A stretch of 64,000 nt of DNA from an uncultured Acidobacteriota bacterium (GTDB taxonomy: Bacteria > Acidobacteriota > JAQAZP01): contig CAWIIB010000009.1 of the NCBI GenBank assembly GCA_963836075.1, positions 512,001-576,000 of the forward strand, read 5' to 3'. A program made the translations under genes and the position numbers. The notes beneath the pieces were generated by a model. It was given only the letters and a program-made list of their open reading frames with translations. It was not told the origin of the DNA and made no database searches. This document shows positions 7,774 through 32,978 of the stretch, in pieces. Position 1 is the stretch's first letter. Each line of letters starts with the position of its first letter.

Positions 7774-9294
7774 ATGCTCAGAGCTGGGACGAGTCTGGCT
7801 TTCATCCTCTTGTGCTCTTCCATTGTGGTGACTGGCGCAGTTATCCATGTCCCGAGCGGCCAGCCCACCATCCAGGCGGGGATCGACGCTGCCGTGGACG
7901 GGGACACCGTGCTGGTGGCCGATGGAACCTTCACCGGTGACGGGAACCGTAACATCGGCTTTCACGGCAAGGCGATCACCGTCAGGTCGGAGAACGGGGC
8001 GGAGTACTGCATTATCGATTGTGAAGGCTGGGGATTTGGATTCACTTTCCAAAACGGTGAGGATCTGGATTCGGTGCTGGACGGATTCACGATCCGCAAC
8101 GGAGAATATATCGCTGGTGGTGGGATCTACTGCGACGGCTCCTCCCCAACGATCGCCAACTGCACCTTCAGTGGAAACGTAGCTGATTTTTTGGGTGGTG
8201 GGCTGTTTTGCGTCTACTCCTCGCCAACGATCGCCAACTGCACCTTCAGTGGAAACGTAGCTGATAGTGACGGTGCCGGTGGTGGGATCTACTGCGCTCA
8301 ATCCTCCCCGACGATCACCAACTGCACCTTCAGCGCTAACGGGGCACAAGGGGCTTGGGGTGGGGGTAACGGTGGTGGGATCTTCTGCGACGCCTCCTCG
8401 CCAACGATCACCAACTGCACCTTCAGCGCTAACTGGGCACATGGGGGTTATGATGGGGGTACGGGTGGTGGGATCGCCTGCTGGGGCTCATCAACGACGA
8501 TCACCAACTGCACCTTCAGCGAGAACGTAGCTGATAATGGTTATGGTAGTGGGATCTTCTGCACGGGGGCGGGATCCTCGCAAACGATCACCAACTGCAT
8601 CGTCTGGAACAACAGCCCGGACGGCATCCATGACGCATCGGGCTCCTCGATCGTCTCCTACTCCGACGTTCAGGGCGGCTGGCCGGGCGAGGGCAACATC
8701 GACGCCGATCCGCTGTTCATTGCCGGACCCGAGGGCAACTACTACCTCAGCCAAGTAGCCGCTGGGCAGGCCGAGGACAGCCCGTGTCTGGATGCCGGGA
8801 GCGAACCGTCAGCGGACATCTGCTACGACAGTGGCGAGGGGACTGTCTGCCTCGACCAGCGCCCGACCCGCACCGACTTCGTCGACGACGCCGGGCAGGT
8901 GGACATGGGATACCACTACCCCGGCCGGATGGTGGAGTCGGTTCTGACCAGTTCCCTGACGTTCGGCACGGTGCCCTTCACGACGGATCTGTCGGTGACG
9001 GTCTCGAACCGGCACCCAAGCCAGTCCCGGACTCTCGTCGGCCGTATCGACGTCGAGCTCGCCGGCGGCCAGTCTTTCCCGAACTGGCGAACCGGATTCT
9101 TGAGCGTTCCGCCCGGAGACAGCTTTACCACGTCCTGGCCCCGGAACATCCCGGCCCTCGGGTCGGTGATTGGGAGAAACGAGTTCACGCTGGTGGCCGA
9201 GGACGTGACATCCGCACCCTTCAACCAACCGCCCTATCCACCGGCAGGGGACACCGCCACGGCCTCCTGCACGGTGACGGGGATCGCTCCGTGA
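7774..9294 (+). CDS. Secreted right-handed parallel beta-helix repeat protein with shared C-terminal domain
   Basis: Signal peptide, VIHVPSGQPTIQAGID, repeated GGGIYC..SSPTIxNCTFSxN units, GNIDADPLF, C-terminal NWRxG...NQPPYPPAGD. Confidence 0.85.
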   Translation: MLRAGTSLAFILLCSSIVVTGAVIHVPSGQPTIQAGIDAAVDGDTVLVADGTFTGDGNRNIGFHGKAITVRSENGAEYCIIDCEGWGFGFTFQNGEDLDSVLDGFTIRNGEYIAGGGIYCDGSSPTIANCTFSGNVADFLGGGLFCVYSSPTIANCTFSGNVADSDGAGGGIYCAQSSPTITNCTFSANGAQGAWGGGNGGGIFCDASSPTITNCTFSANWAHGGYDGGTGGGIACWGSSTTITNCTFSENVADNGYGSGIFCTGAGSSQTITNCIVWNNSPDGIHDASGSSIVSYSDVQGGWPGEGNIDADPLFIAGPEGNYYLSQVAAGQAEDSPCLDAGSEPSADICYDSGEGTVCLDQRPTRTDFVDDAGQVDMGYHYPGRMVESVLTSSLTFGTVPFTTDLSVTVSNRHPSQSRTLVGRIDVELAGGQSFPNWRTGFLSVPPGDSFTTSWPRNIPALGSVIGRNEFTLVAEDVTSAPFNQPPYPPAGDTATASCTVTGIAP

Positions 9295-9375
9295 ACGACC
9301 GGGTGAAACAGCGACATTGATCGGGCAGGCCTCGTAGCGCATCCAGAAAACGATCCCAGCAAAATAGCCGATCTA

Positions 9376-9429
9376 TTGTTATCAACAACTTAAATTGACT
9401 ACATCATTAGCATGTTGTGACCGCCGGCC
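9376..9429 (+). repeat. 54-bp conserved box, copy 1
   Basis: 47/54 identical to 11189-11242; contains TATCAACAACTTA (IHF consensus) and CATCAT-TAGC-ATGTTG. Confidence 0.8.
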
Positions 9430-9634
9430 GAAAAATAAAAGGCTTCCTCGCCACTTTCTTCTTGCCGTTTCGTAAAAATTGCTTATATTTAGCACAAAAG
9501 CACTGCCTATTATTCGTTTTATCCTTCTCTAATCTGATGGCGCCCGAAAGGATTTGTCATCCACGGGAGACAAGGAGCAACGAGATAAGGATTCCTATCT
9601 ATTGAAACGTGGAGGCCATAAAAGGAGTAGTCCC

Positions 9635-11107
9635 ATGAACATCCGCATGTTCTGTTTTATCTGCATCGCATTGCTGACTCTGTGCTTTATTCCAACGACG
9701 ATAACCGAAGCACAGTTATTTGAGCCAGCCGTGAACTACAGTGCCGGTTATGAGCCTTACTCCGTCGACATCGGCGACCTTGATGGCGACGGCACCCCGG
9801 ACCTGGCCGTAGCGAACCGGGTCGACGACAATGTCTCGGTGCTGCTGGGTAACGGGGACGGCACTTTCCAGGATGCGGAGAATTACGGCGCAGCTGAGTC
9901 TCCCGAATCAGTTGCCATCGCAAACCTTGATGGCAACGGCGCCCCGGACCTGGCTGTGGCGAATTACCTGAGTGACAATGTCTCGGTACTCCTGGGCATT
10001 GGGGACGGCATTTTTGGGGCTGCGGTGAATTACGGCGTCGATGACGGGCCTATATCGGTCGCCATCGCAGACCTTGATGGCGATGGCAACTCGGACCTGA
10101 CTGTGGTGAATTACCTGGGTTTCAATGTCTCGGTACTCCTGGGCATTGGGGACGGCACCTTTGGGGCCGCGGTGAATTACGGCGTCAATATCGGGCCTTA
10201 CTCGGTGGCCATCGATGACCTGGATGGCAACCAAGTTCTGGACCTGGCCGTGGCGAATAGTAGCAGTGTTTCCATACTCTTGGGTCTTGGGGACGGCACC
10301 TTTGAAGCCGCGGTGCATTACAACGCCGGCGATGAGCTTAGATCGGTCGCTATCGATGACCTGAATGGCGACGGTGCCCTGGACCTGGCCGTGGCCAATT
10401 CCTTGAGCGACGATGTCTCGGTGCTGCTAGGCAACGGCGACGGCACCTTCCAGACAAGGGTCAATTACGGGGCCGGTGACGGTTCTTACTCGGTCGCCAT
10501 CGGCGACCTGGATGGCGACTTCAACCCGGACCTAGCCGTGTCCAATATATGGAGCAACAATATCTCCGTTCTGTTAGGCAACGGGGACGGCACTTTCCAG
10601 AATGCGGAGAATTACGGGGTCGATCATTGGCCATGGTCGGTCGCCATCGAAGACCTTGATGGCGACGGTGCCCTGGACCTGGCCGTGGCAAATCGAGCTG
10701 GCAACAATATCTCGGTGCTTATCAACCGGAGCGCTGAGAATATCATCGCCGCCGAGCTGACCTGCGTCCCGGCATCGGGCACGATACCCTTTATGGTCAG
10801 CATGACGGTGGGATTGACGAACCAATACAACGGGCAAACCCGCCGTATTGCCGGCCACATTAACCTCCAGCTGGCCGGGGGCGACTACTACTCCAACTGG
10901 CGAGCGGGCTACACCAACGTGGGTCCCGGTCAGACGTACTCGTCATTGTGGGTGCAGACAATCCCGGACCTCGGATCGGTGATCGGCACGAACACTTTCA
11001 CGCTGGTGGCCGAGGACGTGACGCCCTCACCATACAACCAGCCCCCATACCCACCGGCTGGGGATATCGACATGGTCAGCTGCACGGTGACGGGGATCGC
11101 TCCCTGA
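9635..11107 (+). CDS. Secreted FG-GAP/VCBS repeat protein with shared C-terminal domain
   Basis: Signal peptide, seven DLDGDGxxDLAVAN...SVLLGxGDGTF-type repeats, same C-terminal domain; AGGAG RBS. Confidence 0.9.
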   Translation: MNIRMFCFICIALLTLCFIPTTITEAQLFEPAVNYSAGYEPYSVDIGDLDGDGTPDLAVANRVDDNVSVLLGNGDGTFQDAENYGAAESPESVAIANLDGNGAPDLAVANYLSDNVSVLLGIGDGIFGAAVNYGVDDGPISVAIADLDGDGNSDLTVVNYLGFNVSVLLGIGDGTFGAAVNYGVNIGPYSVAIDDLDGNQVLDLAVANSSSVSILLGLGDGTFEAAVHYNAGDELRSVAIDDLNGDGALDLAVANSLSDDVSVLLGNGDGTFQTRVNYGAGDGSYSVAIGDLDGDFNPDLAVSNIWSNNISVLLGNGDGTFQNAENYGVDHWPWSVAIEDLDGDGALDLAVANRAGNNISVLINRSAENIIAAELTCVPASGTIPFMVSMTVGLTNQYNGQTRRIAGHINLQLAGGDYYSNWRAGYTNVGPGQTYSSLWVQTIPDLGSVIGTNTFTLVAEDVTPSPYNQPPYPPAGDIDMVSCTVTGIAP

Positions 11108-11188
11108 TAGGCGAGGCAAGGCAGCGGCAATCTTCAACCAGATGGCGCAAGTAGCGGGAAGTCCCGCTTCGTCCAGACTACCCCTTTT

Positions 11189-11242
11189 TTGTTTTCAATA
11201 ACTTAATTTGAATACATCATTAGCATGATGGGGCCGCCGGCC
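11189..11242 (+). repeat. 54-bp conserved box, copy 2
   Basis: Same offset from the upstream stop codon as copy 1; perfect CATCAT-TAGC-ATGATG palindrome. Confidence 0.8.
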
Positions 11243-11427
11243 ATCGCCTTCTATCCCACCAGGAGCATTGTTCAGCTCTGGCCCCAAGGCGCATCGAGAT
11301 CTATAATCAAAATATCGGATGTCCATGGCGTGTTTTCATGGACAATGGTTTGATCCTGCAGGCAATTAAATACTTGTGGAATACCCTGGCGCCCCGCGCC
11401 CGGACTGAGCTTCTTCGCCTGGGAATA

Positions 11428-11641
11428 GTCGCTCGTCCGTTACGGTGCCACCGTGTTCGCCGGCGCCGACCTGGATGGTGACGGCCGGGACGACCTGGTG
11501 GTGGGCGGCGGCCCCGACCCCGGCATCGGCACACCGGTCAACGTTTTTCGATATGACGGTGTGGCTGTGGGGCAGTGGTTCTCACTGGAGGGCTACGAAG
11601 GATTGACCCACGGCGTCAACGTGGCGGCGGGACGGTTCTAG
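11428..11641 (+). pseudogene. C-terminal remnant of an FG-GAP-like protein
   Basis: SSVRYGATVFAGADLDGDGRDDLVVGGGPDP...GVNVAAGRF*; no start or signal peptide; resembles the C-terminal repeats of 25866-28064. Confidence 0.65.
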
Positions 11642-11665
11642 GAGAATCGACAGGTTGGGCCCCTA

Positions 11666-11974
11666 TCAATCTATTGGGGATTCTGGCTTAAGTATCGGGA
11701 GTCTTTCTGTGCCATCCCTTCTGACACATTCGGTCATTTTATGATAAGACCGGATGGTGTTCTGCAATGTCATCAGGCGCTCCGCCGGGGTCATGGACAG
11801 CATCCAGCGAATCAGAGTCAGGTCAACGCCATCCTCGCTGTGGGTCTTTTTCGTCTCCCCAACGTTCAGGTTTGAATCGTCGAGTTTTCGATCCTGCACG
11901 GCAGCACCTCGGCATGATTCCAGTGGAGAAAATATCGTTGACCAAAGAGTAGGGAACTGCATACCCACTGTCAA
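11666..11974 (-). CDS. Small hypothetical protein (GVDLTLIRWMLSMTPAERL motif); start uncertain
   Basis: Motif recalls small proteins encoded next to nucleotidyltransferases; no partner gene here. Confidence 0.45.
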   Translation of the reverse strand: MTVGMQFPTLWSTIFSPLESCRGAAVQDRKLDDSNLNVGETKKTHSEDGVDLTLIRWMLSMTPAERLMTLQNTIRSYHKMTECVRRDGTERLPILKPESPID

Positions 11975-13344
11975 TCAGTCTGATACTCCCGGGCGTCGAT
12001 CCCCAGCTTCTTCATCTTGCGCCACAGTGTGGTGCGGCTGATGCCCAGGTCGCGGGCCGTCTCCTCCACCCGGCCCTGGTTGGCGCGGAGGGCGGTGCGG
12101 ATGGCATCCCCCTCGGCGGCCTTCAATTTCCTTTTCGGGTCTCCGGCGGCAGCGGCCTTGCCCGGTGCGGCGGCCTGCCGGCGCAGACCGGACTGCAAGT
12201 CTTCGGGCAGGTGGTGCACGTCGATCACCAGGTCGTGGCAGAGGACAAAGCCGTACTCGATGAGGTTCTCCAGTTCGCGCACGTTGCCCGGGAAGTCGTG
12301 GCGCATCAGGATCTCCATCACCGCCGGGGTGACGCCGGTGATCGTCTTGCCCCGCTTGGCCGAAAAGCGCCGGATGAAGTGCTCCACGAGGAAGGGGATG
12401 TCCTGGCGCCGCTCGCGGAGCGGGGGCACGGTGAGGCGGATCACCGCCAGCCGGAAATAGAGGTCGTCGCGGAACTTGCCCTGGCTCACCAGCTCGGCCA
12501 GCTTGCGGTTGGTGGCCGCCACCACCCGCACGTTGGTCTTCAGCGGCCCTTCGCCCCCCAGCGGCTCGTACTCGCGCTCCTGGAGGACGCGGAGCAGCTT
12601 GACCTGGGTCTCCGGCGGCAGCTCGCTGATCTCGTCGAAGAAGATCGTCCCCCCCTCGGCCAGGGTCAGCCGCCCCGGCTTGTCCCGCTTGGCATCGGTG
12701 AACGCGCCCTTGATGTAGCCGAAGAGCTCCGACTCGAAGAGGGTCGCCGGCAGGGCGCCGCAGTTGACCACCACGTAGGGTTGTTTGGCTCGCTGGCTCA
12801 GGTTGTGCACCGCCCGGGCGAGAAGTTCTTTGCCCGAGCCGCTGGGGCCTTCGATGAGCACGGTGGACTCGCTCTCGGCGATGTCGGGGAGCAGGGCGAA
12901 GATCTTGCGGAAGGCCTCGCTCTTGCCGACGATGTCCTCGAAGGTGTACTGGCTCTTGATCTCGCGGCGCAGCTGCTCGATGGCCGAGAGGTCGCGGAAG
13001 GTCTCCACCGCCCCGATCAGCGTGCCGTCGGCATCGCGCAGCACCGCGGTGCTGACACTGATCGGCGTCGACTTGCCTTTGGCGTCGAGGATGCGGGCCG
13101 GCAGGTCGATCTGCTCCATGCCGGTGTCGCGGGTCTGGCGCATGGCGCAGCCCGACTCGCAGATGTTGGCGTGGAAGACGTCGCAGCAGCGCTGGCCGAT
13201 GGCCTCCTCGGCGGAAACCCCGGTGATCCGCTCGGCGGCGCGGTTGAACGAGGTGATCTTCCAATCGCGGTCAACGGTGAACACACCGTCGGCGATGGAA
13301 CTGAGGATCAGTTCGAGAAACTGCCTGTTGTATTCCGGTTTCAT
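11971..13344 (-). CDS. PAS-domain sigma54 enhancer-binding protein, OrpR-like
   Basis: PAS with CCDVFHANICESGC (C-X8-C-X3-C), Walker A GPSGSGKE, GAFTDA, Fis-type HTH. Confidence 0.9.
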   Translation of the reverse strand: MKPEYNRQFLELILSSIADGVFTVDRDWKITSFNRAAERITGVSAEEAIGQRCCDVFHANICESGCAMRQTRDTGMEQIDLPARILDAKGKSTPISVSTAVLRDADGTLIGAVETFRDLSAIEQLRREIKSQYTFEDIVGKSEAFRKIFALLPDIAESESTVLIEGPSGSGKELLARAVHNLSQRAKQPYVVVNCGALPATLFESELFGYIKGAFTDAKRDKPGRLTLAEGGTIFFDEISELPPETQVKLLRVLQEREYEPLGGEGPLKTNVRVVAATNRKLAELVSQGKFRDDLYFRLAVIRLTVPPLRERRQDIPFLVEHFIRRFSAKRGKTITGVTPAVMEILMRHDFPGNVRELENLIEYGFVLCHDLVIDVHHLPEDLQSGLRRQAAAPGKAAAAGDPKRKLKAAEGDAIRTALRANQGRVEETARDLGISRTTLWRKMKKLGIDAREYQTD

Positions 13345-13530
13345 GGTCTCGCACCTGATACATTGCTCAGCCCAATGCCACCAATCCCCATAATGATAAC
13401 GTGATTTCAGAAATATATCGAACCGTCGGCGGTGACGTCCCGTAATTTCTGTGGTAATGGTTTTGATGCTGTCTGCGTTGGTAATGTATTGATGTTTTCA
13501 TAGATGCCGATGGTGTTGCCCGAGGAGAAA

Positions 13531-16029: not shown

Positions 16030-17817
16030 TTGCTCAGCGCACTGCTGCTGCTCGCCGGCTGCGGCGGACGGAGCAATCGGCCGCTCCCGGAACAGCGACG
16101 GCAGCAGAAGGCCGGGCCGAACCTCCTGCTGATCACCCTCGACACCGCCCGGGCCGACCGCCTCGGTTGTTACGGCTACCAGAAGGCGGCCACTCCGAAC
16201 ATCGACCGGCTGGCCGTTGATGGTGTGCTCTTCGAGAAGGCCTTCACCCCGGTTCCGCTCACCGTCTCCTCCCACGCCTCGATCTTCACCGGCTGCTACC
16301 CCCCGCACCACGGCGTACACACCAACGACGAAAAGCTCCTCGACGAGCCGAACCTCTGCCTGGCGGAGATGCTCGAGGCCAGGGGATACCACACCGCGGC
16401 GTTTCTCGGTGCGGCGGTGCTGCACCGTGATTCCGGAATGGCCCAGGGATTCGAGACATACTTCGACGACTTCTCGGCCGCGGGGCCGGCCAGGGCGGCG
16501 GCCTCGCCGGAGAAGTCTGCCGCAGAGGTGGTCGACCCGGCGATCCTCTGGCTGCTGCAGGAGGTGGAGGCTCCGTTCTTTCTCTGGATCCACCTCTTCG
16601 ACCCCCACCGCCCCTTCCAGGCGCCGGCGACCTTCGCCGCCCGCGGGTCGGGTGACCCGTATGACGCCGAGATCACCTACAGCGACCACTGGATCGGCGA
16701 ACTGCTCACAGCCCTGCGCGTGTCGGGCCACCGCGACAACACGGTGGTGGCCTTTCTCTCCGACCACGGGGAGGGCCTGGGTGACCACGACGAGACGGCC
16801 CACGGTTTCTTCATCTACGACAGCACGCTCCACGTGCCCCTGATCATCTCCGCGCCGGGCCTGCTCCCCCGGGGTGAGCGGATCGAACCGCTGGTGCGGA
16901 CCGTGGATCTGGCCCCCACCCTGCTCGACCTGCTGGGCGTCCCGGTTCCCGCAGGGATGCACGGGACGAGCCTCAAGCCGCTGATCGACGGGGCGCCGGA
17001 CCAGCCGCGGGAGCTCTACGCCGAGACCTACTACCCGGCCACCTCCTTCGGCTGGAGCCCGCTGCTCGGCCTGCGCACCGCGGAGCGCAAGGCGATCCTC
17101 GCCCCGCGTCCCGAGTATTACCTGCTGGAGGAGGACGGCGGCGAGACCGTTGACCGCTACGCGGAGATGCCCGGGGAGGCGGCCGGTCTGCTGGCCCGCC
17201 TGGAGGCCCGGGTGCCGCAGCTGGAACGGGAGGGGGTCAGCCAGACACGGCTGCTGGATGAACAGAGCCGGGAGATGCTCCGCGCCCTGGGCTACCTCAC
17301 CGGCGATTCGGCACCGCCCCTGGAGGCAGGCGAGGCACTGCCCGACCCCAAGGACCGGATCGAGGTGGTGAACCGGCTGGAGCTGGCCGTGGAGTTGATG
17401 GGACAGAACCGCCACGCCGACGCAGTGGGGATCCTGGAGGAACTGGCCGCCGAGGAACCGGACAGCGGGATCATTCACAACCTGCTGGGTGAATCTTTGC
17501 TGGTCACCCGCCGCTATGCCAAGGCCGCCCGGGTCTACCGCCGACTCAGCCGGCTGACCCCCGATGATCCCATCCCGCTGGTCAACCTCGGCTCCCTTTC
17601 CTTCATGGACAAGGAATACGACAAGGCGGCCGCCTATTTTGAGCAGGCCCTCGAGCTTTCGCCCCGCCAGGTGGAGGCGCTGCTCAACCTCGGCTACCTC
17701 AATCACCAGAAGTTGGGCAACCGGCAAAAGGCCCGCGAATACTACGGCCGCTTCCTCGAGGCCGCACCCAACGACCCGCAGGCACCGAAGATCCGGTCGC
17801 TGCTCGACATGCTCTAG
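16030..17817 (+). CDS. Sulfatase-like hydrolase with C-terminal TPR repeats, putative lipoprotein
   Basis: LLITLDTARAD, TPNIDRLA, PLTVSSHASIFTG, SDHGE, LLAGC lipobox, TPR motifs. Confidence 0.88.
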   Translation: MLSALLLLAGCGGRSNRPLPEQRRQQKAGPNLLLITLDTARADRLGCYGYQKAATPNIDRLAVDGVLFEKAFTPVPLTVSSHASIFTGCYPPHHGVHTNDEKLLDEPNLCLAEMLEARGYHTAAFLGAAVLHRDSGMAQGFETYFDDFSAAGPARAAASPEKSAAEVVDPAILWLLQEVEAPFFLWIHLFDPHRPFQAPATFAARGSGDPYDAEITYSDHWIGELLTALRVSGHRDNTVVAFLSDHGEGLGDHDETAHGFFIYDSTLHVPLIISAPGLLPRGERIEPLVRTVDLAPTLLDLLGVPVPAGMHGTSLKPLIDGAPDQPRELYAETYYPATSFGWSPLLGLRTAERKAILAPRPEYYLLEEDGGETVDRYAEMPGEAAGLLARLEARVPQLEREGVSQTRLLDEQSREMLRALGYLTGDSAPPLEAGEALPDPKDRIEVVNRLELAVELMGQNRHADAVGILEELAAEEPDSGIIHNLLGESLLVTRRYAKAARVYRRLSRLTPDDPIPLVNLGSLSFMDKEYDKAAAYFEQALELSPRQVEALLNLGYLNHQKLGNRQKAREYYGRFLEAAPNDPQAPKIRSLLDML

Positions 17818-20499: not shown

Positions 20500-20574
20500 G
20501 GGTTCACCGATACTGGTCGCTGTGGCTCCCAAAGGAAAATCAATAGCAACATTCTATATCAGACCGGACGGAGG

Positions 20575-20626: not shown

Positions 20627-20630
20627 TCCC

Positions 20631-23121: not shown

Positions 23122-23130
23122 GGCATGGCC

Positions 23131-25124: not shown

Positions 25125-25148
25125 GGGAATCCTCCTGCACCGGGATAC

Positions 25149-25164: not shown

Positions 25165-25419
25165 GGAATCAATTCGTTGATATTTAAAGACTTGGATAAA
25201 AGAGGAGGCCGGATTCCGACCGCTTGCGGACGACGGTTGTCCGGAACCGGACAGCTCCCGCCGGAGAGTCGGTCAACAAGGCGGGGAATGGTGCACCCGG
25301 CAGCCGGCTTGACTGGCCGGGAAAGCTGGAGAATACTGGGTCACTTTTGATTGACAGAACCTGCGATGGCGCAACGTTACGACAGCACATCTCAATCTTA
25401 TAAACGGGGAGGAAGAACA

Positions 25420-25830
25420 GTGAAACGGTGGATGACGTTGGTGGTGTGTCTTCTGGCGCTGGTCCTGGTGACCGGCTGCGGCGGCAAATACTCGGACGTG
25501 AAAAAGGCCAACGAGGAATACATCGAGATCATCGAGGAATACATCGCTGCGCTGGACAAGGCCGACGACTCAAAAAGCGTGGTCAAGGCGATGAACAACT
25601 TCAGTGACGACCTGGAAGAGCTCTGGCCCAGAATGCAGGAGATGGCCGAGAAATACCCCGAACTGAAGAACGAAGAGGATCTCCCCGAAGAGCTGAAAGA
25701 GTCGCAGGACCGGGCCGAGGAAGTGAGCACCAAGATGGCCAACAGCTTCATGAAACTGATGAAGTACATGGATGACCCGGAAGTGATGGCCGCCCAGGAA
25801 CGCATGGGCAAAATCATGATGCAGCAGTAA
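25420..25830 (+). CDS. Hypothetical helical lipoprotein
   Basis: GGAGG RBS, GTG start, LVTGC lipobox. Confidence 0.8.
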   Translation: MKRWMTLVVCLLALVLVTGCGGKYSDVKKANEEYIEIIEEYIAALDKADDSKSVVKAMNNFSDDLEELWPRMQEMAEKYPELKNEEDLPEELKESQDRAEEVSTKMANSFMKLMKYMDDPEVMAAQERMGKIMMQQ

Positions 25831-25865
25831 CCGGCTCCCCTGGCCGGGATTCACCAGGGGGGATC

Positions 25866-28064
25866 ATGAGCCGCTGGCGAATGGTTGGATCGGTCATTTC
25901 CCTCGTGCTGCTCGCCCTGCCGGGTGCTGCGGCGGGGGATACCGCCGACCCGGGCCCCCCCTGCGAACTCCAGTGGCTCGACCCCTTCGAGGCCCCCGGC
26001 AGCCGCTTCCCCAACTACGCCTGCCACATCGACGACCAACTGCTGGTCCTCGGCGATGCCGATCTCGATTTCGGTGCCGTCCACATCTACCGCCGGGAGG
26101 GCCTGACCTGGGTCTACGATGAACTGTTGCTCCCCGACAAGCCGATCGAGGACATCGCCTTCGGTTACCGCATCGCCCTGGATGGTGACCGGCTGCTGGT
26201 GGGCGCCCCGCTCTACGGCAGCATCGGTGACCATCCGGGTGCGGTGTACGCCTTCCGGCGCATTGGCGGCGACTGGGTCGAGGAGGAGATCATCGTCCCC
26301 GGCGACGAGCCCAGTCGGGCCTGGTTCGGTTCAGAGATCGCCATCTCCGGCAACCTGGCGGCCGTCGCAGCGTCCTCCCGGGACAATGGTGCGGTTTACG
26401 ATGCCGGAGCGATCTACATCTTTGAGGACAGCGGCAGCGGGTGGACCGAGCAGGGCCTGATCACCCTCCCGGACCCCAGGGAGGATGAAATGTTCGGCCG
26501 GGATCTGGCCTTTGCCGGCGAACGGATCTTCGCCGCCCAACGATGGCGTGACCACTCGGGCGTTGCCTCCGGTTCGGTGTATATCTTTAAAGAGGATGGG
26601 GCTTCCTGGATCGAGGAGGATGTCATCTGGGCCGATGATGCGGAGCAGGGCGACCTCTTCGGCTTCGATGTGGCCGCGGACGGCGACCGGGTTCTGGTCG
26701 GGGCCCCGGGATCCAGCGGCCCCACCGCCCAGAGCGGGATAGCCCATATCTTCCGCAATGACGGTGGGAACTGGGTGGAGGAGGACCGTCTCGTCGACAG
26801 CGAAAGCTGGGGCGAGGATTATCTGGGGTCCTGTGTCGAGTTCACCGCTGGCCTGGCCATCGTCGGGATACCCCGTTTCCAGCCGTTCGGGTCCTGCCTG
26901 ATCTTCGAGCAGCAGGGCTCCCAGTGGCTTCCGGCCGAACGGGTCAGCCCCACCCTGGAATTCGACGTGAGCGCCTTCGGTTCCGGCCTCTCCTGTCACG
27001 GTGGTTTCCTGCTGGTCAGCGGCCAGGACAATGCCGCGGTGTACGGCACTACCTCCGAGACCTGTTGCCCCCTGGTGCTGGTGGCGCCTGGACCGGCCGA
27101 GGCCAATCCCGCACGTATCCGCGCGTTCGACACCTACGGAAATCCCTATGCCGCCACGGATTTCACCGCATACCAGTCGTACGGGTACGGCGTCCGGCTG
27201 ACCACCGGCCGTTTCCTCGGCTACAACGATTACCCGGAAATCATCACCGGACCCGGGCCGGGGGAAAACAACCCTCCCCGGGTGTCGATGTTTTCAAACC
27301 GGGGTCAGCATATCGAAATGGACTTCACGGCGTACGGTGTGCCGAAATACGGGGTGAACGTGGCCTGCGGCGACCTGGACGGGGACGGTGACGACGAGAT
27401 TGTCACCGGCGCCGGGCCGGGTGCGGTCTTCGGCCCCCACGTCCGCGGCTGGCGCTGGGAGGATGATGTCTGGCCCATGACAAACGTCAACTTCCTGGCC
27501 TACGGCACCAACAAGTATGGCGTCAACGTGGCCTGCGGCGACATCGACGCCGACGGGATGGCCGAAATCATCACCGGCGCCGGGCCGGGAGCGGTCTTCG
27601 GCCCCCACGTCCGCGGCTGGGACGTGGACGGCGGCACGGCCGCGCCGATCCCCGGGGTCAACTACTTTGCCTACGGCACGCCGAAGTGGGGTGTCAACGT
27701 GGCCTGCGGTGACATCGACGGGGACGGCTATGACGAGATCATCACCGGCGCCGGGCCGGGAGCGGTCTTCGGCCCCCACGTCCGGGCCTGGAATCATGAC
27801 GGAAGCGGGATCGCCCCCATCCCCGGGGTCAGCTATTTCGCCTACGGCACGAACAAGTTCGGCGTACGGGTGACCGCCGGTGATCTGGACTACGACGGGA
27901 TCGACGAAATCGTCACCACTCCGGGCCCCGGCGCCGTGTTCGGGTCGCACGTCCGCGGCTGGAATTACGATGGCCAGACGCTCTCGGCAATCTCCACGAT
28001 GAGCTTTTTCGCCTACGACGGTTCCATGCGCTACGGGGCCGATGTGGCACTGCTCGACCGCTGA
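25866..28064 (+). CDS. Secreted FG-GAP beta-propeller protein with C-terminal GPGAVFGPHVRGW repeats
   Basis: Signal peptide; FGxxxAxDGDRxLVGAP repeats; repeats of GVNVACGDIDGDGxDEIITGAGPGAVFGPHVRGW. Confidence 0.88.
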   Translation: MSRWRMVGSVISLVLLALPGAAAGDTADPGPPCELQWLDPFEAPGSRFPNYACHIDDQLLVLGDADLDFGAVHIYRREGLTWVYDELLLPDKPIEDIAFGYRIALDGDRLLVGAPLYGSIGDHPGAVYAFRRIGGDWVEEEIIVPGDEPSRAWFGSEIAISGNLAAVAASSRDNGAVYDAGAIYIFEDSGSGWTEQGLITLPDPREDEMFGRDLAFAGERIFAAQRWRDHSGVASGSVYIFKEDGASWIEEDVIWADDAEQGDLFGFDVAADGDRVLVGAPGSSGPTAQSGIAHIFRNDGGNWVEEDRLVDSESWGEDYLGSCVEFTAGLAIVGIPRFQPFGSCLIFEQQGSQWLPAERVSPTLEFDVSAFGSGLSCHGGFLLVSGQDNAAVYGTTSETCCPLVLVAPGPAEANPARIRAFDTYGNPYAATDFTAYQSYGYGVRLTTGRFLGYNDYPEIITGPGPGENNPPRVSMFSNRGQHIEMDFTAYGVPKYGVNVACGDLDGDGDDEIVTGAGPGAVFGPHVRGWRWEDDVWPMTNVNFLAYGTNKYGVNVACGDIDADGMAEIITGAGPGAVFGPHVRGWDVDGGTAAPIPGVNYFAYGTPKWGVNVACGDIDGDGYDEIITGAGPGAVFGPHVRAWNHDGSGIAPIPGVSYFAYGTNKFGVRVTAGDLDYDGIDEIVTTPGPGAVFGSHVRGWNYDGQTLSAISTMSFFAYDGSMRYGADVALLDR

Positions 28065-28118
28065 TGTCCCCACCCGTCTCACCCCCGTTGATTTTATTTT
28101 TCAAAGGGATAGAATCCC

Positions 28119-28146
28119 TGAGACACTTCCGCCCTGACTGAGACAC
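28119..28146 (+). promoter_or_regulatory. Direct repeat TGAGACAC x2 upstream of the activator gene
   Basis: TGAGACAC at 28119 and 28139; the same motif is clustered at 39765-39824. Confidence 0.55.
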
Positions 28147-28167
28147 CCACGCAGTGACGGAGAGCCA

Positions 28168-30021
28168 ATGCCCCGGAAAATGAAAATCCTCTTTATCTGC
28201 CTGACCAACTCCACCCGGAGCCAGATGGCCGAAGCCCTGCTCCGGGCCAGGGCGGGGGACCGGGCCGAGGCATTCAGCGCCGGGATCGAACCGTCAGAGC
28301 TCCACCCGCTGGCCATCCAGGTGCTGGAGGAGGCCGGCGTCCCGGTGGAACACCAGCGGGCCAAGTCCATCGGCCAGCTGGAAGAGGGGATGTTCGACCT
28401 GGTGATCACCCTCTGCAACGACGCCCGGGAAGCCTGTTTCTCTCCCGAGCGCACCGGCGAGGAAGAGCAGAAGCGGCTCTTCTCCGGGGTGCCGATCTAC
28501 CTCCACTGGCCGGTGCGCGAACCGGCCGACGGAGCCGGCTCGGCCCGGGAAGCGCTGGACGCCTTCCGCTCGGTCCGCGACCTGGTGGGCAAGCGGTTGG
28601 ACGACCTGGTGAGCTGCGGCTATCTCGACGCCTTTGCCCGGGAACGCGAGCGACTGCAGCTCTTTGTCGACATCCAGCAGAGCGGCATCCTGATCCACGA
28701 CGAAAACCGCCGGATCTTCCTGGTCAACGATGCCCTGCTGCGCATCACCGGTCGCTCCCGGGACGACCTCATCGGCCGCGAGTGCCAGGACGTCTTCCCG
28801 CCCGACGGCCTCTGCGGGGACAACTGCAGTTTCTGCGACGGCAAGGGCGGCGTCACCGAAGAGATGGAATACCGCTTCCGTTTTGCCGACGCCCGGGGCA
28901 AGCAGAAGCAACTGCGGGTCATCGCCCGGCCGCTGGAGATGGAGCCGGGCAAGTACGGCGTGGTGGCCCTGGTGCGCGACGAGACCGAGGTGAGCCGGCT
29001 GCGCACCCGGCTCTCCGGTCAAAAGACCTTCCACCATATGGTGGGTGTCTCCCCGGCCATCCGCGAGGTCTTCGGGATGATCGAGTCGGTGAGCCACTCC
29101 GACTACCCGGTGCTGATCACCGGCGATAGCGGCACCGGCAAGGAGCTGGTGGCCGCGGCGATCCACCGCGAGAGCGGCCGCCGGGGCGGCCCCTTCGTCC
29201 CGGTGAACTGCGGGGCCCTGCCGGAGAACATCCTGGAGAGCGAACTGTTCGGCCACGTGCGGGGCGCCTTCACCGGCGCCATCCGGGACAAGAAAGGCCG
29301 CTTTGAGCTGGCCGGGAGCGGCACGCTCTTCCTTGACGAGGTGGGCGAACTGTCTCCGCCGGTGCAGATCAAACTGCTGCGGGTCCTGCAGGAGAAGGTG
29401 ATCGAGCGGGTGGGCGGCGAGAAGCCGATCCCGGTGGATGTCAGGATCATCAGCGCCACCAACAGGGACCTGCGGGAGATGGTGGGCCAGGGCTCGTTTC
29501 GCGAAGACCTCTTCTACCGCCTCTGCGTGGTGCCCATGGCCCTGCCGCCGCTGCGTGAGCGGCGGGAGGACATCGCCCCGCTGGTGGTCCACTTCCTCGA
29601 GCGGATCAGCCGCGAGACCGGCCGGGAGTTTCTCCAGGTGGATGACGGGGCCCTGGAATGCCTGCTCAACCACCACTGGCCGGGCAATGTGCGCGAGCTG
29701 ATCAACGCCCTGCAGTTCGCCGCGGTGCGCTCCACCGGCGAAATACTCCGCCCCGAGCACCTACCCCCGGAGGTGCGGTTCCGGCCGACCACGGCCCGTT
29801 CCACCCAACCCGTCCCGCTGACCGGCCCCGGAGAGGGCCCGCCGGTGTCATTCCCCCCCACCCCCCGGGGACAGCGGGTCAAGCTGACCATGGCCATGGT
29901 GGAGCAGGCCCTGGGGGAGACCGGCGGCAACAAAGTCCGGGCGGCCAGACTGCTCGGTGTGGGCCGGGCCACGCTCTACCGCTTCCTCGATGCCCAGAAA
30001 AAGAACCCCTCCGTCTCCTGA
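28168..30021 (+). CDS. Sigma54 enhancer-binding protein with N-terminal ArsC/LMW-PTP-like and PAS domains
   Basis: ILFICLTNSTRSQMAEA, SAGIEP, VITLC..AREAC; PAS; GDSGTGKE, GAFTGA, GVGRATLYR. Confidence 0.9.
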   Translation: MPRKMKILFICLTNSTRSQMAEALLRARAGDRAEAFSAGIEPSELHPLAIQVLEEAGVPVEHQRAKSIGQLEEGMFDLVITLCNDAREACFSPERTGEEEQKRLFSGVPIYLHWPVREPADGAGSAREALDAFRSVRDLVGKRLDDLVSCGYLDAFARERERLQLFVDIQQSGILIHDENRRIFLVNDALLRITGRSRDDLIGRECQDVFPPDGLCGDNCSFCDGKGGVTEEMEYRFRFADARGKQKQLRVIARPLEMEPGKYGVVALVRDETEVSRLRTRLSGQKTFHHMVGVSPAIREVFGMIESVSHSDYPVLITGDSGTGKELVAAAIHRESGRRGGPFVPVNCGALPENILESELFGHVRGAFTGAIRDKKGRFELAGSGTLFLDEVGELSPPVQIKLLRVLQEKVIERVGGEKPIPVDVRIISATNRDLREMVGQGSFREDLFYRLCVVPMALPPLRERREDIAPLVVHFLERISRETGREFLQVDDGALECLLNHHWPGNVRELINALQFAAVRSTGEILRPEHLPPEVRFRPTTARSTQPVPLTGPGEGPPVSFPPTPRGQRVKLTMAMVEQALGETGGNKVRAARLLGVGRATLYRFLDAQKKNPSVS

Positions 30022-30494
30022 TCCACGAACCTCCAGGGATAGTTTTTACGTTGTGCGTACGTTCTTGCCCCGCCGAGGTTGTGCCCCGGCAGCGGCCTCT
30101 TTCCACAGAAGGCAACATTCCCTACCGAATTAATAGGGTTTATTCCTTTTATTCATTGCCCTGGAATCAATTCCACCTTCCGGAGAGCAACAACGTACCG
30201 ACGACGTCCCCCCCAAAAAAACTTCCCTGGCGCCGCAAAATCCAGATAATAGATACATCACGTCGATCATGTGGTTGGCAGTTCACCACGTGGCCGGCAA
30301 ACGACTCTCAAGTTTTTCAGTTTTTTCAAACCGAAGAGGCCCCAAGCGGGGCAAACGCAGTGCCTGGGGGGCAATGGTGCTTCCTCAGGTTCCGGTCATG
30401 GTTGAACGTTACGTATTTACGTATTCGCGAACCCGTGGCTGATGGAAGACAACACGGCCCATAATCGGGCTGCAACAACGAGTGGAGATAGCAG

Positions 30495-32978
30495 ATGAAA
30501 AGTTTTTGGACCAGAACTCTGACAGCCACCCTCTGTATGTTGATCCTGGTGCTTCCGGCGATGGCGTCCGATGCACCACTGAGAAATGGGAAGATCCAGC
30601 CGACCGGCCTCGCCTCATCCCCGGCCGAAGCGGCCCATATGATGGCCAGCGTGCAGCGCTCGACCAGTACTGCCCGGCAGCGGATGCAGCTGTCGAATAT
30701 CGGCGGCCTGGGACTTCAGGCATTGCGGGACAGTTGGACGCCCGCACCCGGTTACGCGACACCGGAAATGCAGATGACGAACATCGGCAAAGAGTCGATG
30801 CGCACCTTCGAGGGCCACGACCTCGGTTCGTTGAGCGATGGGGTGGTCACCGCCACGGCCATTCTCTACGCGCCCTCCCAGCCTGACAACCCGGCCTTCC
30901 GCACGGCGCTCTCCGCCTGCACCGGCGCCACCGTCGATTACTTCGATGCCAGTGCCGGCACCCCGAGCGTGGCCCTGCTCTCGGCCTATGACTGCGTGTA
31001 CGTCTGGGGCAACTATGCCTTTGCCGATGCCGTCCTCTACGGCGACAACCTCGCGGCTTACGTGGACGTCGGCGGCAAGGTGATCCTCGGCCAGTGGTGC
31101 TACCACACCACTCAGATCAACTGGCTGGAGGGTGCGATCATGACCCCGGCCTACTGCCCCATCACCGCAACGGGTTATGAAAGCGGAGCCTACAACGGCG
31201 ACGGCGGCGACTGCGTCCACGGCGGCGTCGGCGCCTACGATTCCTCCTATTTCGACGCCTGCACGCCGATCGGCGGCGCCTTCTCCGACGGGACATTCAA
31301 CAACCCCTCGAACAGCCTGGCCGTGGCCTGGCGCGCCGACCGCGCCGTCTACTACAGCCCGGGCTTCACCGGCACCGACTACGGCACCGGTGACTGGGCC
31401 ACGTTGGCCTGCAACATGTGCGACTGCACCGCCGGCGGCGGCTGGGGCATCCTCTACGCGCCCACCGAAAATGACAACCCGACCTTCCGCGCTGATGTCG
31501 CCGCCTGTTCGGGTAAAAACGTCGACTATTACGACGCGCGCACTGGCACCCCGACCGTGGCCGAGCTGATGGCCTACGATTGCGTGTTCACCTGGACGAA
31601 CGGCGCCTATGCCGACGCCACCACTTTCGGCAACAACCTCGCCGCCTACGTCGACGCCGGCGGTAAGGTGATCCTCGGCCAGTGGACCCTGCAGAGCGAC
31701 CAGGCCTACTTCCTGGGCGGCGCGATCATGACCGCGGCCTACTGCCCGGTCACCACGAGCACCAGTTACGACTCGGGTGCCTACAACGGCGACGGCACTG
31801 ACTGCGTGCACGGCGGCGTTGGCGCCTACGACACGACCTATCTCGACGTCGCCACGGCGATCGGCGGAGCTTCCTCCGACGGGACGTTCAACAACGGTTC
31901 GAACAGCCTGGCCGTGGCCTGGCGCGCCGACCGCGGCGTCTACTACAGCCCGGGCAACACCGGCAACACTTACGGCACCGGTGAATGGGCCGAGTTGATC
32001 TGCAACATGGATTCCTGCGTCGACGTCACCTACGGGGACATCCTCTACGCACCGAGCGAAGCGGACAACTCGGTCTTCCGCGCTGAAGTGGCTGCCTGCA
32101 CCGGCATGACCGTCGACTACTACGACGCGCGCGTTGGCACCCCGGACGTGGCACTGCTCTCGAACTACGACTGCGTGCTCACCTGGGCCAACTATGCCTA
32201 CTTCGACAATGTCGCATTCGGCGACAACCTGGCGACCTACGTGGACGGCGGAGGCAAGGTGATCCTCGGTCAGTGGTGTCTGCCCACCGCGGGCAACTAC
32301 CTCTCCGGCGCGATCATGACCTCAGCCTACTGCCCGACCACCGCAGTTTCGCCCTGGGAATCCGGAGCCTACAACGGCGACGGCACCGATTGCGTGTTTG
32401 GCGGTGTCGCCGGCCTTGATGCCCCCTATTTCGACGCCGCTACGCTGGTGGCCGGGGCTTCCGATGGGACGTTCAACAACCCGTCGAACAGCCTGGCCGT
32501 GGCCTGGCGCGCCGACCGGATGGTCTACTCCAGCCCGGGGCAGACCGGCGGCACCTACACCACCGGTGATTGGGCCCAGTTGCTCTGCAACATGTGCTCC
32601 TGCTCGGCGGGACCGAGCGGCACCATCGCCGTGGACCTGGATGCGACGCCCGACAGCGGTTTCACACCCTTCACCTCCTACTTCTCCGCGACGTTGACCA
32701 ACCTGACCACCGAGAACCGGCGCGCTGCCGCGAGAATCAACGTGGTCATCGCCAACGGCAACAACTACAACAACTGGAGAGCCGGTTGGACCAACCTCTC
32801 CAGCCTGGAGGTCTTCACCAAGTCCTGGTACCAGACCATCCCGGCCCTGGCAACCGTGATCGGCACCAACACCTTCACCCTTCAGGGTGCTGACGTGACG
32901 CCGGCCCCCTACAACCAGCCGCCCTTCATGCCGTCTGGTGACACGGACACGGACGTGCAGACCGTGATCGCCAACTAG
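30495..32978 (+). CDS. Secreted protein with three ~200-aa Cys-rich repeats and the shared C-terminal domain
   Basis: Signal peptide; three ILYAP...GDNLAAYVDxGGKVILGQW...SLAVAWRADR units; C-terminal NWRAG...PYNQPP. Confidence 0.88.
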   Translation: MKSFWTRTLTATLCMLILVLPAMASDAPLRNGKIQPTGLASSPAEAAHMMASVQRSTSTARQRMQLSNIGGLGLQALRDSWTPAPGYATPEMQMTNIGKESMRTFEGHDLGSLSDGVVTATAILYAPSQPDNPAFRTALSACTGATVDYFDASAGTPSVALLSAYDCVYVWGNYAFADAVLYGDNLAAYVDVGGKVILGQWCYHTTQINWLEGAIMTPAYCPITATGYESGAYNGDGGDCVHGGVGAYDSSYFDACTPIGGAFSDGTFNNPSNSLAVAWRADRAVYYSPGFTGTDYGTGDWATLACNMCDCTAGGGWGILYAPTENDNPTFRADVAACSGKNVDYYDARTGTPTVAELMAYDCVFTWTNGAYADATTFGNNLAAYVDAGGKVILGQWTLQSDQAYFLGGAIMTAAYCPVTTSTSYDSGAYNGDGTDCVHGGVGAYDTTYLDVATAIGGASSDGTFNNGSNSLAVAWRADRGVYYSPGNTGNTYGTGEWAELICNMDSCVDVTYGDILYAPSEADNSVFRAEVAACTGMTVDYYDARVGTPDVALLSNYDCVLTWANYAYFDNVAFGDNLATYVDGGGKVILGQWCLPTAGNYLSGAIMTSAYCPTTAVSPWESGAYNGDGTDCVFGGVAGLDAPYFDAATLVAGASDGTFNNPSNSLAVAWRADRMVYSSPGQTGGTYTTGDWAQLLCNMCSCSAGPSGTIAVDLDATPDSGFTPFTSYFSATLTNLTTENRRAAARINVVIANGNNYNNWRAGWTNLSSLEVFTKSWYQTIPALATVIGTNTFTLQGADVTPAPYNQPPFMPSGDTDTDVQTVIAN

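What the first reader, a model, noticed from the sequence alone, without database searches (positions are those of the whole stretch)
7774..32978. Three unrelated secreted proteins share one ~120-aa C-terminal domain: candidate undescribed sorting/anchoring signal
Seen: a beta-helix protein (domain at ~8929-9294), an FG-GAP protein (~10738-11107) and a triple-repeat protein (~32619-32978) have signal peptides and non-homologous bodies but end in the same domain: GxxPF...N...R...I...AxGxxxxNWRxG...W...IPxLxxVIGxNxFTL...DVTxxP(Y/F)NQPPxxPxGD...TV. Known: a constant terminal domain on variable passengers is how T9SS CTD, PEP-CTERM, SLH and dockerin systems look. This domain has no TM plus basic tail, no LPxTG/PEP motif, no terminal aromatic beta-signal, and matches none I recognise. 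Inference: a lineage-specific export or surface-docking tag with an unknown partner.
Basis: partly seen in the sequence, partly recalled or inferred. Interest (0 to 1): 0.85.

Follow-up and report, generated by a model that had tools for sequence, protein, structure and literature searches.

The report
Uncatalogued shared tail domain on secreted proteins
Three unrelated secreted proteins of a marine-sediment acidobacterium end in the same ~120-residue beta-sandwich domain, which sits on dozens of different exported proteins per genome, is absent from the domain catalogues searched, and most likely serves as a common docking or address tag whose partner is still unknown.

Summary
Genes at 7774-9294 (beta-helix), 9635-11107 (FG-GAP) and 30495-32978 (triple repeat) have signal peptides, unrelated bodies (best BLASTP E 0.1) and one shared C-terminal domain (46-51% identity, tblastn E 1e-25 to 1e-42).

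The domain matches no Pfam or NCBIfam model, even at E<=10. An HMM search of 1.84 billion representatives found 493 proteins. In 241 of 247 fetched bearers it ends within 6 residues of the C-terminus. Passengers are very diverse: 19 Pfam classes among 83 full-length members.

In species-representative genomes the best 80 matches lie in three MAGs: two labelled Acidobacteriota (one of them Ca. Sulfomarinibacteraceae, 98% identical to the window) and one untitled. At least 55 and 28 bearers were found in two of them.

AlphaFold gives a confident beta-sandwich (pLDDT 94) with only generic structural neighbours: RbmA, complement MG domains, TRAP, and a CARDB lead.

The sorting or anchoring role is inferred, not shown. 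No partner was found. Eight proteins carry two copies and four carry the domain internally, which favours a docking module over a strict export signal.

The parts
7774..9294 (+). Gene 1: secreted parallel beta-helix protein (506 aa from ATG 7774) that ends in the shared domain
   Evidence: Translation; Pfam Beta_helix E 4e-29; ATG at 7774 and signal-peptide-like N-terminus; orthologue 99% identical in L027
8929..9291 (+). Shared C-terminal domain, copy 1. It lacks the first Cys of the family's Cys pair.
   Evidence: tblastn 8926-9291, E 5.6e-41 to copy 2; alignment
9635..11107 (+). Gene 2: secreted FG-GAP repeat protein (490 aa from ATG 9635) that ends in the shared domain
   Evidence: Translation; Pfam FG-GAP_3 E 2.4e-47, 7 stretches; signal-peptide-like N-terminus
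10739..11104 (+). Shared C-terminal domain, copy 2. It has both Cys and was the sequence modelled.
   Evidence: AlphaFold2 model pLDDT 94.1
30495..32978 (+). Gene 3: secreted protein (827 aa) with three ~190-aa repeats, ending in the shared domain
   Evidence: Translation; repeats 68-69% identical; only sub-threshold Pfam hits in the body; signal-peptide-like N-terminus
32619..32975 (+). Shared C-terminal domain, copy 3. It lacks both Cys of the pair.
   Evidence: tblastn 32625-32948, E 5.7e-32 to copy 2; alignment

Best explanation
The domain is an extracytoplasmic, usually disulfide-stapled, ~120-residue beta-sandwich. This Thermoanaerobaculia (Acidobacteriota) lineage uses it as a common docking module.

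Proposed mechanism: after Sec export through the N-terminal signal peptide, the module holds very different passengers on one shared, lineage-specific receptor at the cell surface or in the matrix. The passengers include proteases, glycosidases, esterases, phosphatases, sulfotransferase-like enzymes, and FG-GAP and beta-helix proteins. The receptor would be an envelope glycan or a scaffold protein. In logic this resembles dockerin, SLH or a surface-retention domain.

The likely contact surface is the invariant set NWRxG, W82 and the Pro-rich loop DVTPxPYNQPPYPPxGD.

Shown: the domain, its fold class, its terminal position, its spread over passengers, its copy number and its lineage. Inferred: export to the outside, the disulfide, the existence of a receptor and the contact surface.
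For: - Position: the domain ends within 6 residues of the C-terminus in 241 of 247 bearers. Its envelope ends within 6 residues of the ORF end in 84 of 86 domain ORFs in the genome loci.
- Copy number: the held loci contain 55 domain ORFs in MAG JAQAZP01 and 28 in CBESOE01.
- Passengers: of 83 full-length members, 51 fall into 19 Pfam classes and 32 have none. No Pfam model covers the tail in any of them.
- Export: 174 of 221 members that start with M have signal-peptide-like N-termini, against 1 of 18 controls.
- Cys pair: of 255 domain copies, 218 have both Cys20 and Cys126, 16 have neither and 21 have one. This fits a disulfide between the first and last strands in an oxidising compartment.
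- Constraint: median pairwise identity is about 52% both within and between genomes, and about 30 columns are 90% or more conserved. This points to an old paralogue family held by a common constraint rather than recent copying.
- Position tolerance: proteins with two copies (8 of 247) and with internal or N-proximal copies (4 of 247) are what binding modules such as dockerins, CBMs and SLH show (recalled knowledge). Export signals do not show this.
- Structure: the best structural superposition is with RbmA, a Vibrio biofilm matrix scaffold protein (TMq 0.70, rmsd 2.2).
Against: - No receptor, scaffold or processing gene was found in the window or in the roughly 3-kb flanks of 74 loci.
- All functional steps are inferred. 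There is no expression, localisation or binding data.
- The Foldseek matches are weak (best E 9.9e-5, 10-17% identity) and generic.
- The near-exclusive C-terminal position, with the chain ending exactly at the last strand, fits a T9SS-type signal equally well.
- The signal-peptide call comes from a home-made rule, not a trained predictor.
- The conservation figures come from the best-scoring 255 copies and so overstate conservation in the whole family.
Confidence: 0.42

Rival explanations
1. The domain is an export address tag that works like the T9SS C-terminal domain. The folded domain would be recognised in the periplasm by a dedicated outer-membrane translocon. It would then be cleaved off, or used to link the cargo covalently to the surface.
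For: - The domain sits at the extreme C-terminus in 241 of 247 bearers, and the chain mostly ends ...G[IVLM]AP right after the last strand.
- There are tens of cargo proteins per genome, with the enzyme and adhesin mix typical of T9SS cargo.
- It is a seven/eight-strand beta-sandwich of similar size class.
- Bearers have Sec-type signal peptides.
Against: - No T9SS CTD model (type A or B) matches any of the 3 window proteins or the 30 members tested, even at E<=10.
- No T9SS CTD structure appears among the Foldseek rows listed.
- The titled bearer genomes are Acidobacteriota. T9SS is described only for the Bacteroidota/FCB group (recalled knowledge).
- Tandem copies (8) and copies with 195-413 residues after them (4) occur.
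- No translocon or sortase-like gene was seen near any bearer.
Confidence: 0.22
2. The domain is a substrate- or particle-binding module, CBM-like or CARDB-like. It would bind something in the environment, such as a polymer, a mineral surface or detritus, rather than the cell's own surface. Exo-enzymes and adhesin-like proteins would then stick to the same target.
For: - The protein-language-model search places it nearest to CARDB-annotated clusters: score 0.91, with 9 of the ten best named hits sharing a family or clan.
- The structural neighbours are adhesion or matrix and macroglobulin-type sandwiches.
- It has conserved aromatic and polar residues (W65, R66, N71, W82, Y110, N111, Q112, Y115).
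- Tandem and internal copies occur.
Against: - The Pfam CARDB model and all CBM models fail to match at E<=10 in 30 of 30 members.
- One binding specificity is hard to reconcile with passengers as different as proteases, phosphatases, esterases, a chitinase, sulfotransferase-like enzymes and propellers.
- The recognition value of the Atlas query was below the level that most real families reach, so the CARDB lead is weak.
Confidence: 0.22
3. The domain is a passive structural or folding module: a stalk, a stabilising Ig-like cap, or a PPC-like pro-domain that aids folding or secretion. It would have no shared partner.
For: - The fold is a generic Ig-like sandwich.
- C-terminal beta-sandwich domains that are later removed are known on secreted peptidases (recalled knowledge of the PPC domain).
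- Some bearers are peptidases (S8, M28, C1).
Against: - About 30 columns are 90% or more conserved, including a 17-residue surface-type Pro-rich loop. Identity plateaus near 52% across paralogues and genomes. That is more constraint than a spacer needs.
- Most passengers are not peptidases.
- One bearer's precomputed Pfam list includes PF04151 (recalled as the PPC domain) in addition to this tail (P0019). My own scan of that protein at E<=1e-6 returned only Peptidase_S8.
- No Pfam model matched the tail in 30 members at E<=10.
Confidence: 0.1

Closest known systems
T9SS C-terminal domains (type A Por_Secre_tail, type B) of Bacteroidota
   Same: Both are a folded Ig-like beta-sandwich at the extreme C-terminus of Sec-exported proteins. 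Both occur on tens of cargo proteins per genome, with unrelated enzymatic or adhesin passengers.
   Different: There is no sequence match. This domain is longer, about 120 aa. It has a conserved Cys pair and a Pro-rich loop. It is much more conserved between paralogues (about 52%). It occurs in Acidobacteriota, and tandem and internal copies exist. No T9SS machinery was seen, and none could be searched for.
Dockerin modules of cellulosomal proteins (partner: cohesin)
   Same: Both are one small module on many different secreted enzymes. Both are mostly C-terminal but occasionally internal or duplicated, and both have many bearers per genome. This is the closest match in architectural statistics (the dockerin side is recalled knowledge).
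   Different: The fold is entirely different: a beta-sandwich rather than a Ca-binding helical EF-hand pair. There is no Pfam match, and no cohesin-like scaffold has been identified.
CARDB (PF07705) and related E-set sandwiches (TRAP-beta, macroglobulin MG domains)
   Same: They share the fold class. The nearest named clusters in the ESM Atlas are CARDB (0.91). Foldseek hits include TRAP subunits and complement MG domains (TMq 0.54-0.60).
   Different: The Pfam CARDB HMM does not match any of 30 members at E<=10. CARDB has no established function or fixed terminal position (recalled), so membership would not explain the terminal placement.
RbmA FnIII-type domains (Vibrio cholerae biofilm scaffold)
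   Same: This is the best structural superposition: 4be6_A, TMq 0.70, rmsd 2.2 over 119 columns. RbmA is an extracellular matrix-retention protein.
   Different: Identity is 13%, E is 4.3e-4, and there is no sequence-level relation. RbmA is a stand-alone two-domain protein, not a tag on varied passengers.

Membership tests
T9SS type A/B C-terminal sorting domain | Match to the curated CTD models (NCBIfam TIGR04183, TIGR04131 and relatives; Pfam equivalents) | tested here: not met
   No such family was returned for the 3 window proteins at E<=1 or for 30 members at E<=10. The model accessions are recalled.
T9SS type A/B C-terminal sorting domain | Located at the extreme C-terminus of a protein with an N-terminal Sec signal | tested here: met
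   241 of 247 bearers are terminal. 174 of 221 have a signal-peptide-like N-terminus, against 1 of 18 controls. However, 4 internal copies and 8 proteins with two copies exist.
T9SS type A/B C-terminal sorting domain | Genome encodes the T9SS machinery (SprA/Sov, PorV, PorU, GldKLMN) | not testable with these tools
   Whole genomes of the bearers could not be scanned. Nothing of the kind lies in the 64-kb window or in the locus flanks that were annotated.
T9SS type A/B C-terminal sorting domain | Structural similarity to solved CTDs | tested here: not met
   No T9SS CTD appears among the listed Foldseek PDB rows. There were 42 hits at E<=1e-3 and about 45 rows were shown. Lower-ranked rows were not seen.
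CARDB (PF07705) | Match to the Pfam model | tested here: not met
   0 of 30 members at E<=10 and 0 of 83 at E<=1e-6.
CARDB (PF07705) | Fold or embedding similarity | tested here: inconclusive
   Atlas score 0.91 to a cluster in which 22% of members carry CARDB. The recognition value was below the usual level. Foldseek finds E-set relatives only weakly. No profile-profile test against CARDB was possible.
PEP-CTERM / LPXTG / GlyGly-CTERM type short sorting signals | Short motif followed by a TM helix and a basic tail at the C-terminus | tested here: not met
   The proteins end in a predicted beta-strand, and the commonest last four residues are GIAP, GVAP and GLAP. No NCBIfam sorting-signal model was hit.
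Dockerin / SLH / PKD / PPC / CBM modules | Match to the Pfam models | tested here: not met
   None was returned on the domain in 30 members at E<=10. CBM96 follows, rather than overlaps, the domain in P0161.

The most novel reading that the evidence does not exclude
Thermoanaerobaculia Acidobacteriota may possess a cargo-tag system of their own. The ~120-aa domain would be the address label for a dedicated, still unidentified partner. That partner could be an outer-membrane export or attachment machine analogous to T9SS but unrelated to it. Alternatively it could be a cohesin-like scaffold that assembles 50 or more different exo-enzymes and adhesin-like proteins on the cell surface.
Probability: 0.3. 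Interest if true: 0.85.

Novelty: new variant of a known kind. Interest (0 to 1): 0.62.

Why it matters
Constant terminal modules on variable passengers have repeatedly led to the discovery of secretion and surface-attachment machinery, such as T9SS, sortases, exosortases and cellulosomes.

Here a sharply bounded, strongly conserved and uncatalogued module marks what looks like the exported-protein repertoire, hydrolases included, of an uncultured and abundant marine-sediment lineage implicated in sulfur cycling (PMC8528874; passages read).

A domain model would immediately improve annotation of several hundred "hypothetical" proteins. It would define the likely surface proteome of these organisms. 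It would also give a handle, through co-occurrence profiling and pull-downs, for finding the partner.

If the partner proves to be a dedicated machine or scaffold, it would be a new protein-sorting system. If not, this is a new family of CARDB-like surface domains, which is useful but modest.

Tried and rejected
- **Curated families.** Pfam and NCBIfam were searched at permissive thresholds on the three proteins, on 30 members and on 83 full-length members. Nothing matched on the domain.
- **PDB by sequence profile.** Nothing was found; best E 0.53.
- **Self-association.** Complex prediction with two copies of the domain (alignment A2) gave no verdict: score 0.02 against a mark of 0.42. This is neither for nor against binding.
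- **Partner hunt by neighbourhood.** I clustered 211 non-domain neighbour ORFs from 74 loci. Only three kinds recurred: FG-GAP proteins without the tail, sulfatase and/or TPR proteins, and a kinase-FGE fusion or regulators. No secretion, sortase-like or outer-membrane gene recurred. Minus-strand ORF names are off by up to 3 bases.
- **Sigma-54 promoters.** A consensus scan upstream of the three genes, which lie near three enhancer-binding proteins, gave 24 matches against 30.9 expected, and none was suitably placed.
- **Literature.** Five searches found no description of the domain: 'Sulfomarinibacter'; 'Thermoanaerobaculia' with 'C-terminal domain' and 'secreted'; 'Acidobacteriota' with 'type IX secretion'; 'Thermoanaerobaculia' with 'FG-GAP'; and 'Acidobacteria' with 'C-terminal sorting'. 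In PMC8528874 I read only the passages found by term search. Its supplementary tables were not opened.
- **Not checked.** AlphaFold DB, InterPro and HHpred were not available. The 66 genome matches beyond the best 80 and the 343 weaker hits were not seen.


Full report
**1. The observation**

Three long ORFs on the + strand end in the same sequence. A tblastn search of the three 130-residue tails against the whole window finds exactly three copies, at 8926-9291, 10727-11104 and 32625-32975. Pairwise identities are 46-51% and E-values run from 1e-25 to 1e-42. The next best hit has E 0.084.

The bodies are unrelated: the best pairwise BLASTP E is 0.1. Gene 1 is a parallel beta-helix protein (Pfam Beta_helix, E 4e-29). 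Gene 2 is an FG-GAP repeat protein (FG-GAP_3, E 2.4e-47). Gene 3 has no Pfam family above cut-off and consists of three ~190-aa repeats that are 68-69% identical.

The likely starts are ATG 7774, 9635 and 30495. Each is followed by a signal-peptide-like N-terminus under a simple hydrophobicity rule that flags 1 of 18 cytoplasmic-type proteins of the same window.

**2. The domain is not catalogued**

- Pfam-A and NCBIfam return nothing on the tail for the three proteins at E<=1.
- They return nothing recurrent for 30 family members scanned at E<=10.
- They return nothing on the tail for 83 full-length members at E<=1e-6.
- In particular, no T9SS CTD, CARDB, PKD, PPC, dockerin, SLH or CBM model matches.
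- A family profile against all PDB sequences gives nothing (best E 0.53).

**3. Size and shape of the family**

A profile of the three window copies was searched with HMMER against 1.84 billion representative proteins. It found 493 proteins at E<=1e-3, 454 at E<=1e-10 and 354 at E<=1e-30. The family is therefore sharply bounded, with few marginal hits. A word-indexed search for longer proteins gave 204 hits.

Of the 249 proteins stored by then, 247 carry the domain. The two that do not are other window proteins.

- In 241 of 247 the domain ends within 6 residues of the C-terminus.
- Two have 8-12-residue tails after it.
- Four have 195-413 further residues after it. P0147 has the domain right after its signal peptide. 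P0161 is a papain-like protease, then the domain, then CBM96. P0165 has the domain internally. P0208 is a beta-helix, then the domain, then FG-GAP.
- Eight carry two copies, seven of them directly tandem.

The commonest last four residues are GIAP (82), GVAP (36) and GLAP (12).

Among the 244 database proteins, 221 start with M, and 174 of these have a signal-peptide-like N-terminus. Many of the remaining 47 are visibly fragments or have a hydrophobic N-terminus without a K or R.

I scanned 83 of the 174 signal-peptide-like members; members over 900 aa were left out, and the call's 50,000-residue limit capped the rest. Thirty-two have no Pfam family. The other 51 fall into 19 passenger classes:

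| Passenger class | Members |
|---|---|
| FG-GAP | 12 |
| Beta_helix | 10 |
| Arylsulfotransferase-like | 6 |
| BNR | 3 |
| Subtilase (S8) | 2 |
| M28 peptidase | 2 |
| FGE-sulfatase | 2 |
| Purple-acid phosphatase | 2 |
| CotH + LTD | 2 |
| GH18, papain + lectin, CE2/GDSL esterase, GSDH, Kelch, PQQ propeller, SBBP, Reg_prop, F5/8-C, DUF362 + TSP3 | 1 each |

(All.)

**4. Lineage and copy number**

The scan of one genome per species (185,579 species) used the peptide pattern TP[ASP]P[YF]NQPP. It gave 155 pattern matches, of which 146 were confirmed by tblastn. The best 80 (74 loci) come from only three MAGs:

- JAQAZP01, titled "Acidobacteriota bacterium": 47 loci.
- CBESOE01, an untitled "uncultured bacterium": 26 loci.
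- CAWAUY01, titled "Candidatus Sulfomarinibacteraceae bacterium": 1 locus.

The other 66 matches were not shown.

The CAWAUY locus is 98.3% identical in DNA to window 8113-11751. The window therefore comes from that species-level population. NCBI taxonomy places the family in Thermoanaerobaculales, Thermoanaerobaculia, Acidobacteriota.

Re-scanning the held loci with the HMM gives 86 domain ORFs: 55 in JAQAZP, 28 in CBESOE and 3 in CAWAUY, two of which are pieces of one frame-broken gene. In 84 of 86 the domain envelope ends within 6 residues of the ORF end. These counts are lower bounds, because only one peptide pattern was used and only about 3 kb of flank was held. Bearer genes often sit next to each other, for example three in L064.

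Median pairwise identity of the domain is about 52% within JAQAZP, within CBESOE and between them. For 23 of 55 JAQAZP copies the best match lies in the other genome. The paralogues are therefore old and held at a plateau by constraint. They have not been homogenised recently.

**5. Anatomy**

AlphaFold2 with a 30-row alignment gives a confident model: mean pLDDT 94.1, pTM 0.83, with 121 of 130 residues at pLDDT 90 or above. It is an all-beta sandwich of seven to eight strands, with a 16-residue loop between the last two strands. The three-sequence model had pLDDT 73.

In 255 aligned copies taken from the best-scoring proteins, which inflates conservation, the positions conserved at 90% or more are: P22, G25, P28, F29, N39, R46, G59, W65, R66, G68, N71, W82, P87, G94, N96, F98, the loop D104-V-T-P-x-P-x-N-Q-P-P-Y115, and G119.

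Cys20 in the first strand region and Cys126 in the last strand occur together in 218 copies, are both absent in 16, and occur singly in 21. I read this as a disulfide staple, and so as evidence for an oxidising, extracytoplasmic location. This is an inference. Window copy 2 has both Cys, copy 1 has only the second, and copy 3 has neither.

**6. Structural neighbours**

Foldseek against the PDB gives 42 hits at E<=1e-3. All are weak (best E 9.9e-5, 10-17% identity) and generic:

- Spo0M and arrestin.
- Complement C3/C4 macroglobulin domains.
- TRAP subunits.
- GH-associated sandwiches.
- The best superposition, RbmA of Vibrio cholerae (4be6_A: TMq 0.70, rmsd 2.2, 119 columns).

No T9SS CTD appears among the rows listed.

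The ESM Atlas feature search puts the domain nearest to unnamed clusters (0.92-0.93). Among named clusters it is nearest to CARDB-annotated ones (0.91 to a cluster where 22% of members carry CARDB, and 9 of the ten best named hits share a family or clan). The recognition value (about 2100) is below what most real families reach. The domain is thus a CARDB/E-set-like sandwich at fold level. That is a lead, not membership.

**7. Context**

The window encodes nothing that looks like a partner. Its contents are:

- Histidine kinases and three sigma-54 activators.
- A methyltransferase and a permease.
- A sulfatase-TPR lipoprotein.
- A MacB/HlyD-type ABC system.
- A second FG-GAP protein without the tail.
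- An unknown secreted protein followed by a radical-SAM/SPASM enzyme.
- Hybrid-cluster protein, rubrerythrins and a 2-oxoacid dehydrogenase complex.
- Alternative complex III, cytochrome oxidase and an IS91 transposase.

(All.)

Clustering 211 non-domain neighbour ORFs from the 74 loci gives only FG-GAP proteins of the tail-less type (10), sulfatase and/or TPR proteins (9), and small groups of regulators. A sigma-54 promoter scan was at chance level.

**8. Mechanism**

Shown: a conserved, folded, usually terminal module on many unrelated signal-peptide proteins in a narrow lineage.

My best-supported reading (0.42) is a common docking module. It would retain exported enzymes and adhesin-like proteins on one shared receptor of the cell surface or matrix, using the invariant WRxG/W82/Pro-rich-loop surface.

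I prefer this to a T9SS-like export signal (0.22) for three reasons. The module tolerates duplication and internal placement. Nothing T9SS-like matches. The titled bearer genomes lie outside the phyla known to have T9SS.

An environmental binding module of CBM or CARDB type (0.22) is hard to square with one specificity serving proteases, phosphatases, esterases, a chitinase and propellers, but it is not excluded.

A passive structural or pro-domain role (0.10) fits poorly with the degree and pattern of conservation.

None of these readings has been tested experimentally.

**9. Novelty**

The logic, a constant terminal module on variable cargo, is known. This module is unrelated in sequence to every curated example I could test. 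I found no description of it in five literature searches. The one paper on this lineage that I consulted discusses secreted peptidases and cellulases without mentioning a shared domain (PMC8528874; passages only).

I rate it a new variant of a known kind. Interest is moderate to high because it defines a probable surface proteome and gives a direct route to an unknown partner.

Noticed in passing
window 16030-17817 (+): A lipoprotein (its N-terminus carries an LLLAGC lipobox) fuses a sulfatase/alkaline-phosphatase-type domain to C-terminal TPR repeats. Sulfatase-type relatives lie within about 3 kb of tail-bearing genes in 5 of 74 loci, and one (L041) has the same sulfatase-TPR fusion. No genome background rate was available, so the association is unproven.
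   Followed up: partly
window 25866-28064 (+): A second secreted FG-GAP protein (732 aa) lacks the shared tail. Proteins with the same repeat type and no tail recur beside tail-bearing genes in other genomes: a cluster of 10 neighbour ORFs, some of them open-ended.
   Followed up: partly
window 33097-35566 (+): Directly downstream of gene 3 lies a 345-aa protein with a signal or TM segment and no Pfam family. It is followed by a radical-SAM/SPASM enzyme. This may be a maturase pair, and a sulfatase gene lies in the same window.
   Followed up: no
window 11971-13344 (-), 19129-20532 (-), 28168-30021 (+): Three sigma-54 enhancer-binding proteins lie in 18 kb. The last has an N-terminal low-molecular-weight phosphotyrosine phosphatase domain and sits just upstream of gene 3. 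A sigma-54 promoter consensus scan was at chance level.
   Followed up: partly
window 8001-12000: G+C is 0.575-0.577 across genes 1 and 2, against 0.62-0.68 in the flanks. The cause was not examined. It could be repeat-rich codon content or a different history.
   Followed up: no
window 60001-64000: G+C falls to 0.55-0.56, with strong negative GC skew at 60-62 kb. An IS91-family transposase (Y2_Tnp plus a zinc-binding domain) lies at 62178-63338.
   Followed up: no
window 48114-60214 (+): A respiratory cluster: multihaem cytochrome c, an Fe-S/molybdopterin-like subunit, NrfD, ActD (alternative complex III), cytochrome c, SCO1, and COX1, COX3 and COX2. An oxygen-respiration module sits in a genome that also carries hybrid-cluster protein and rubrerythrins.
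   Followed up: no
L027 1831-3492 (Ca. Sulfomarinibacteraceae MAG contig CAWAUY010000016.1): The orthologue of gene 2 is split over several frames, with 15 gaps in 3651 aligned bases at 98.3% identity to the window. This is probably assembly error rather than a pseudogene.
   Followed up: partly
P0126-P0129, P0131, P0134, P0176, P0178; P0147, P0161, P0165, P0208: Eight family members carry two copies of the domain, seven of them directly tandem. Four carry it internally or N-proximally, for example papain protease, then the domain, then CBM96. These are the informative exceptions for deciding between a docking role and a signal role.
   Followed up: partly
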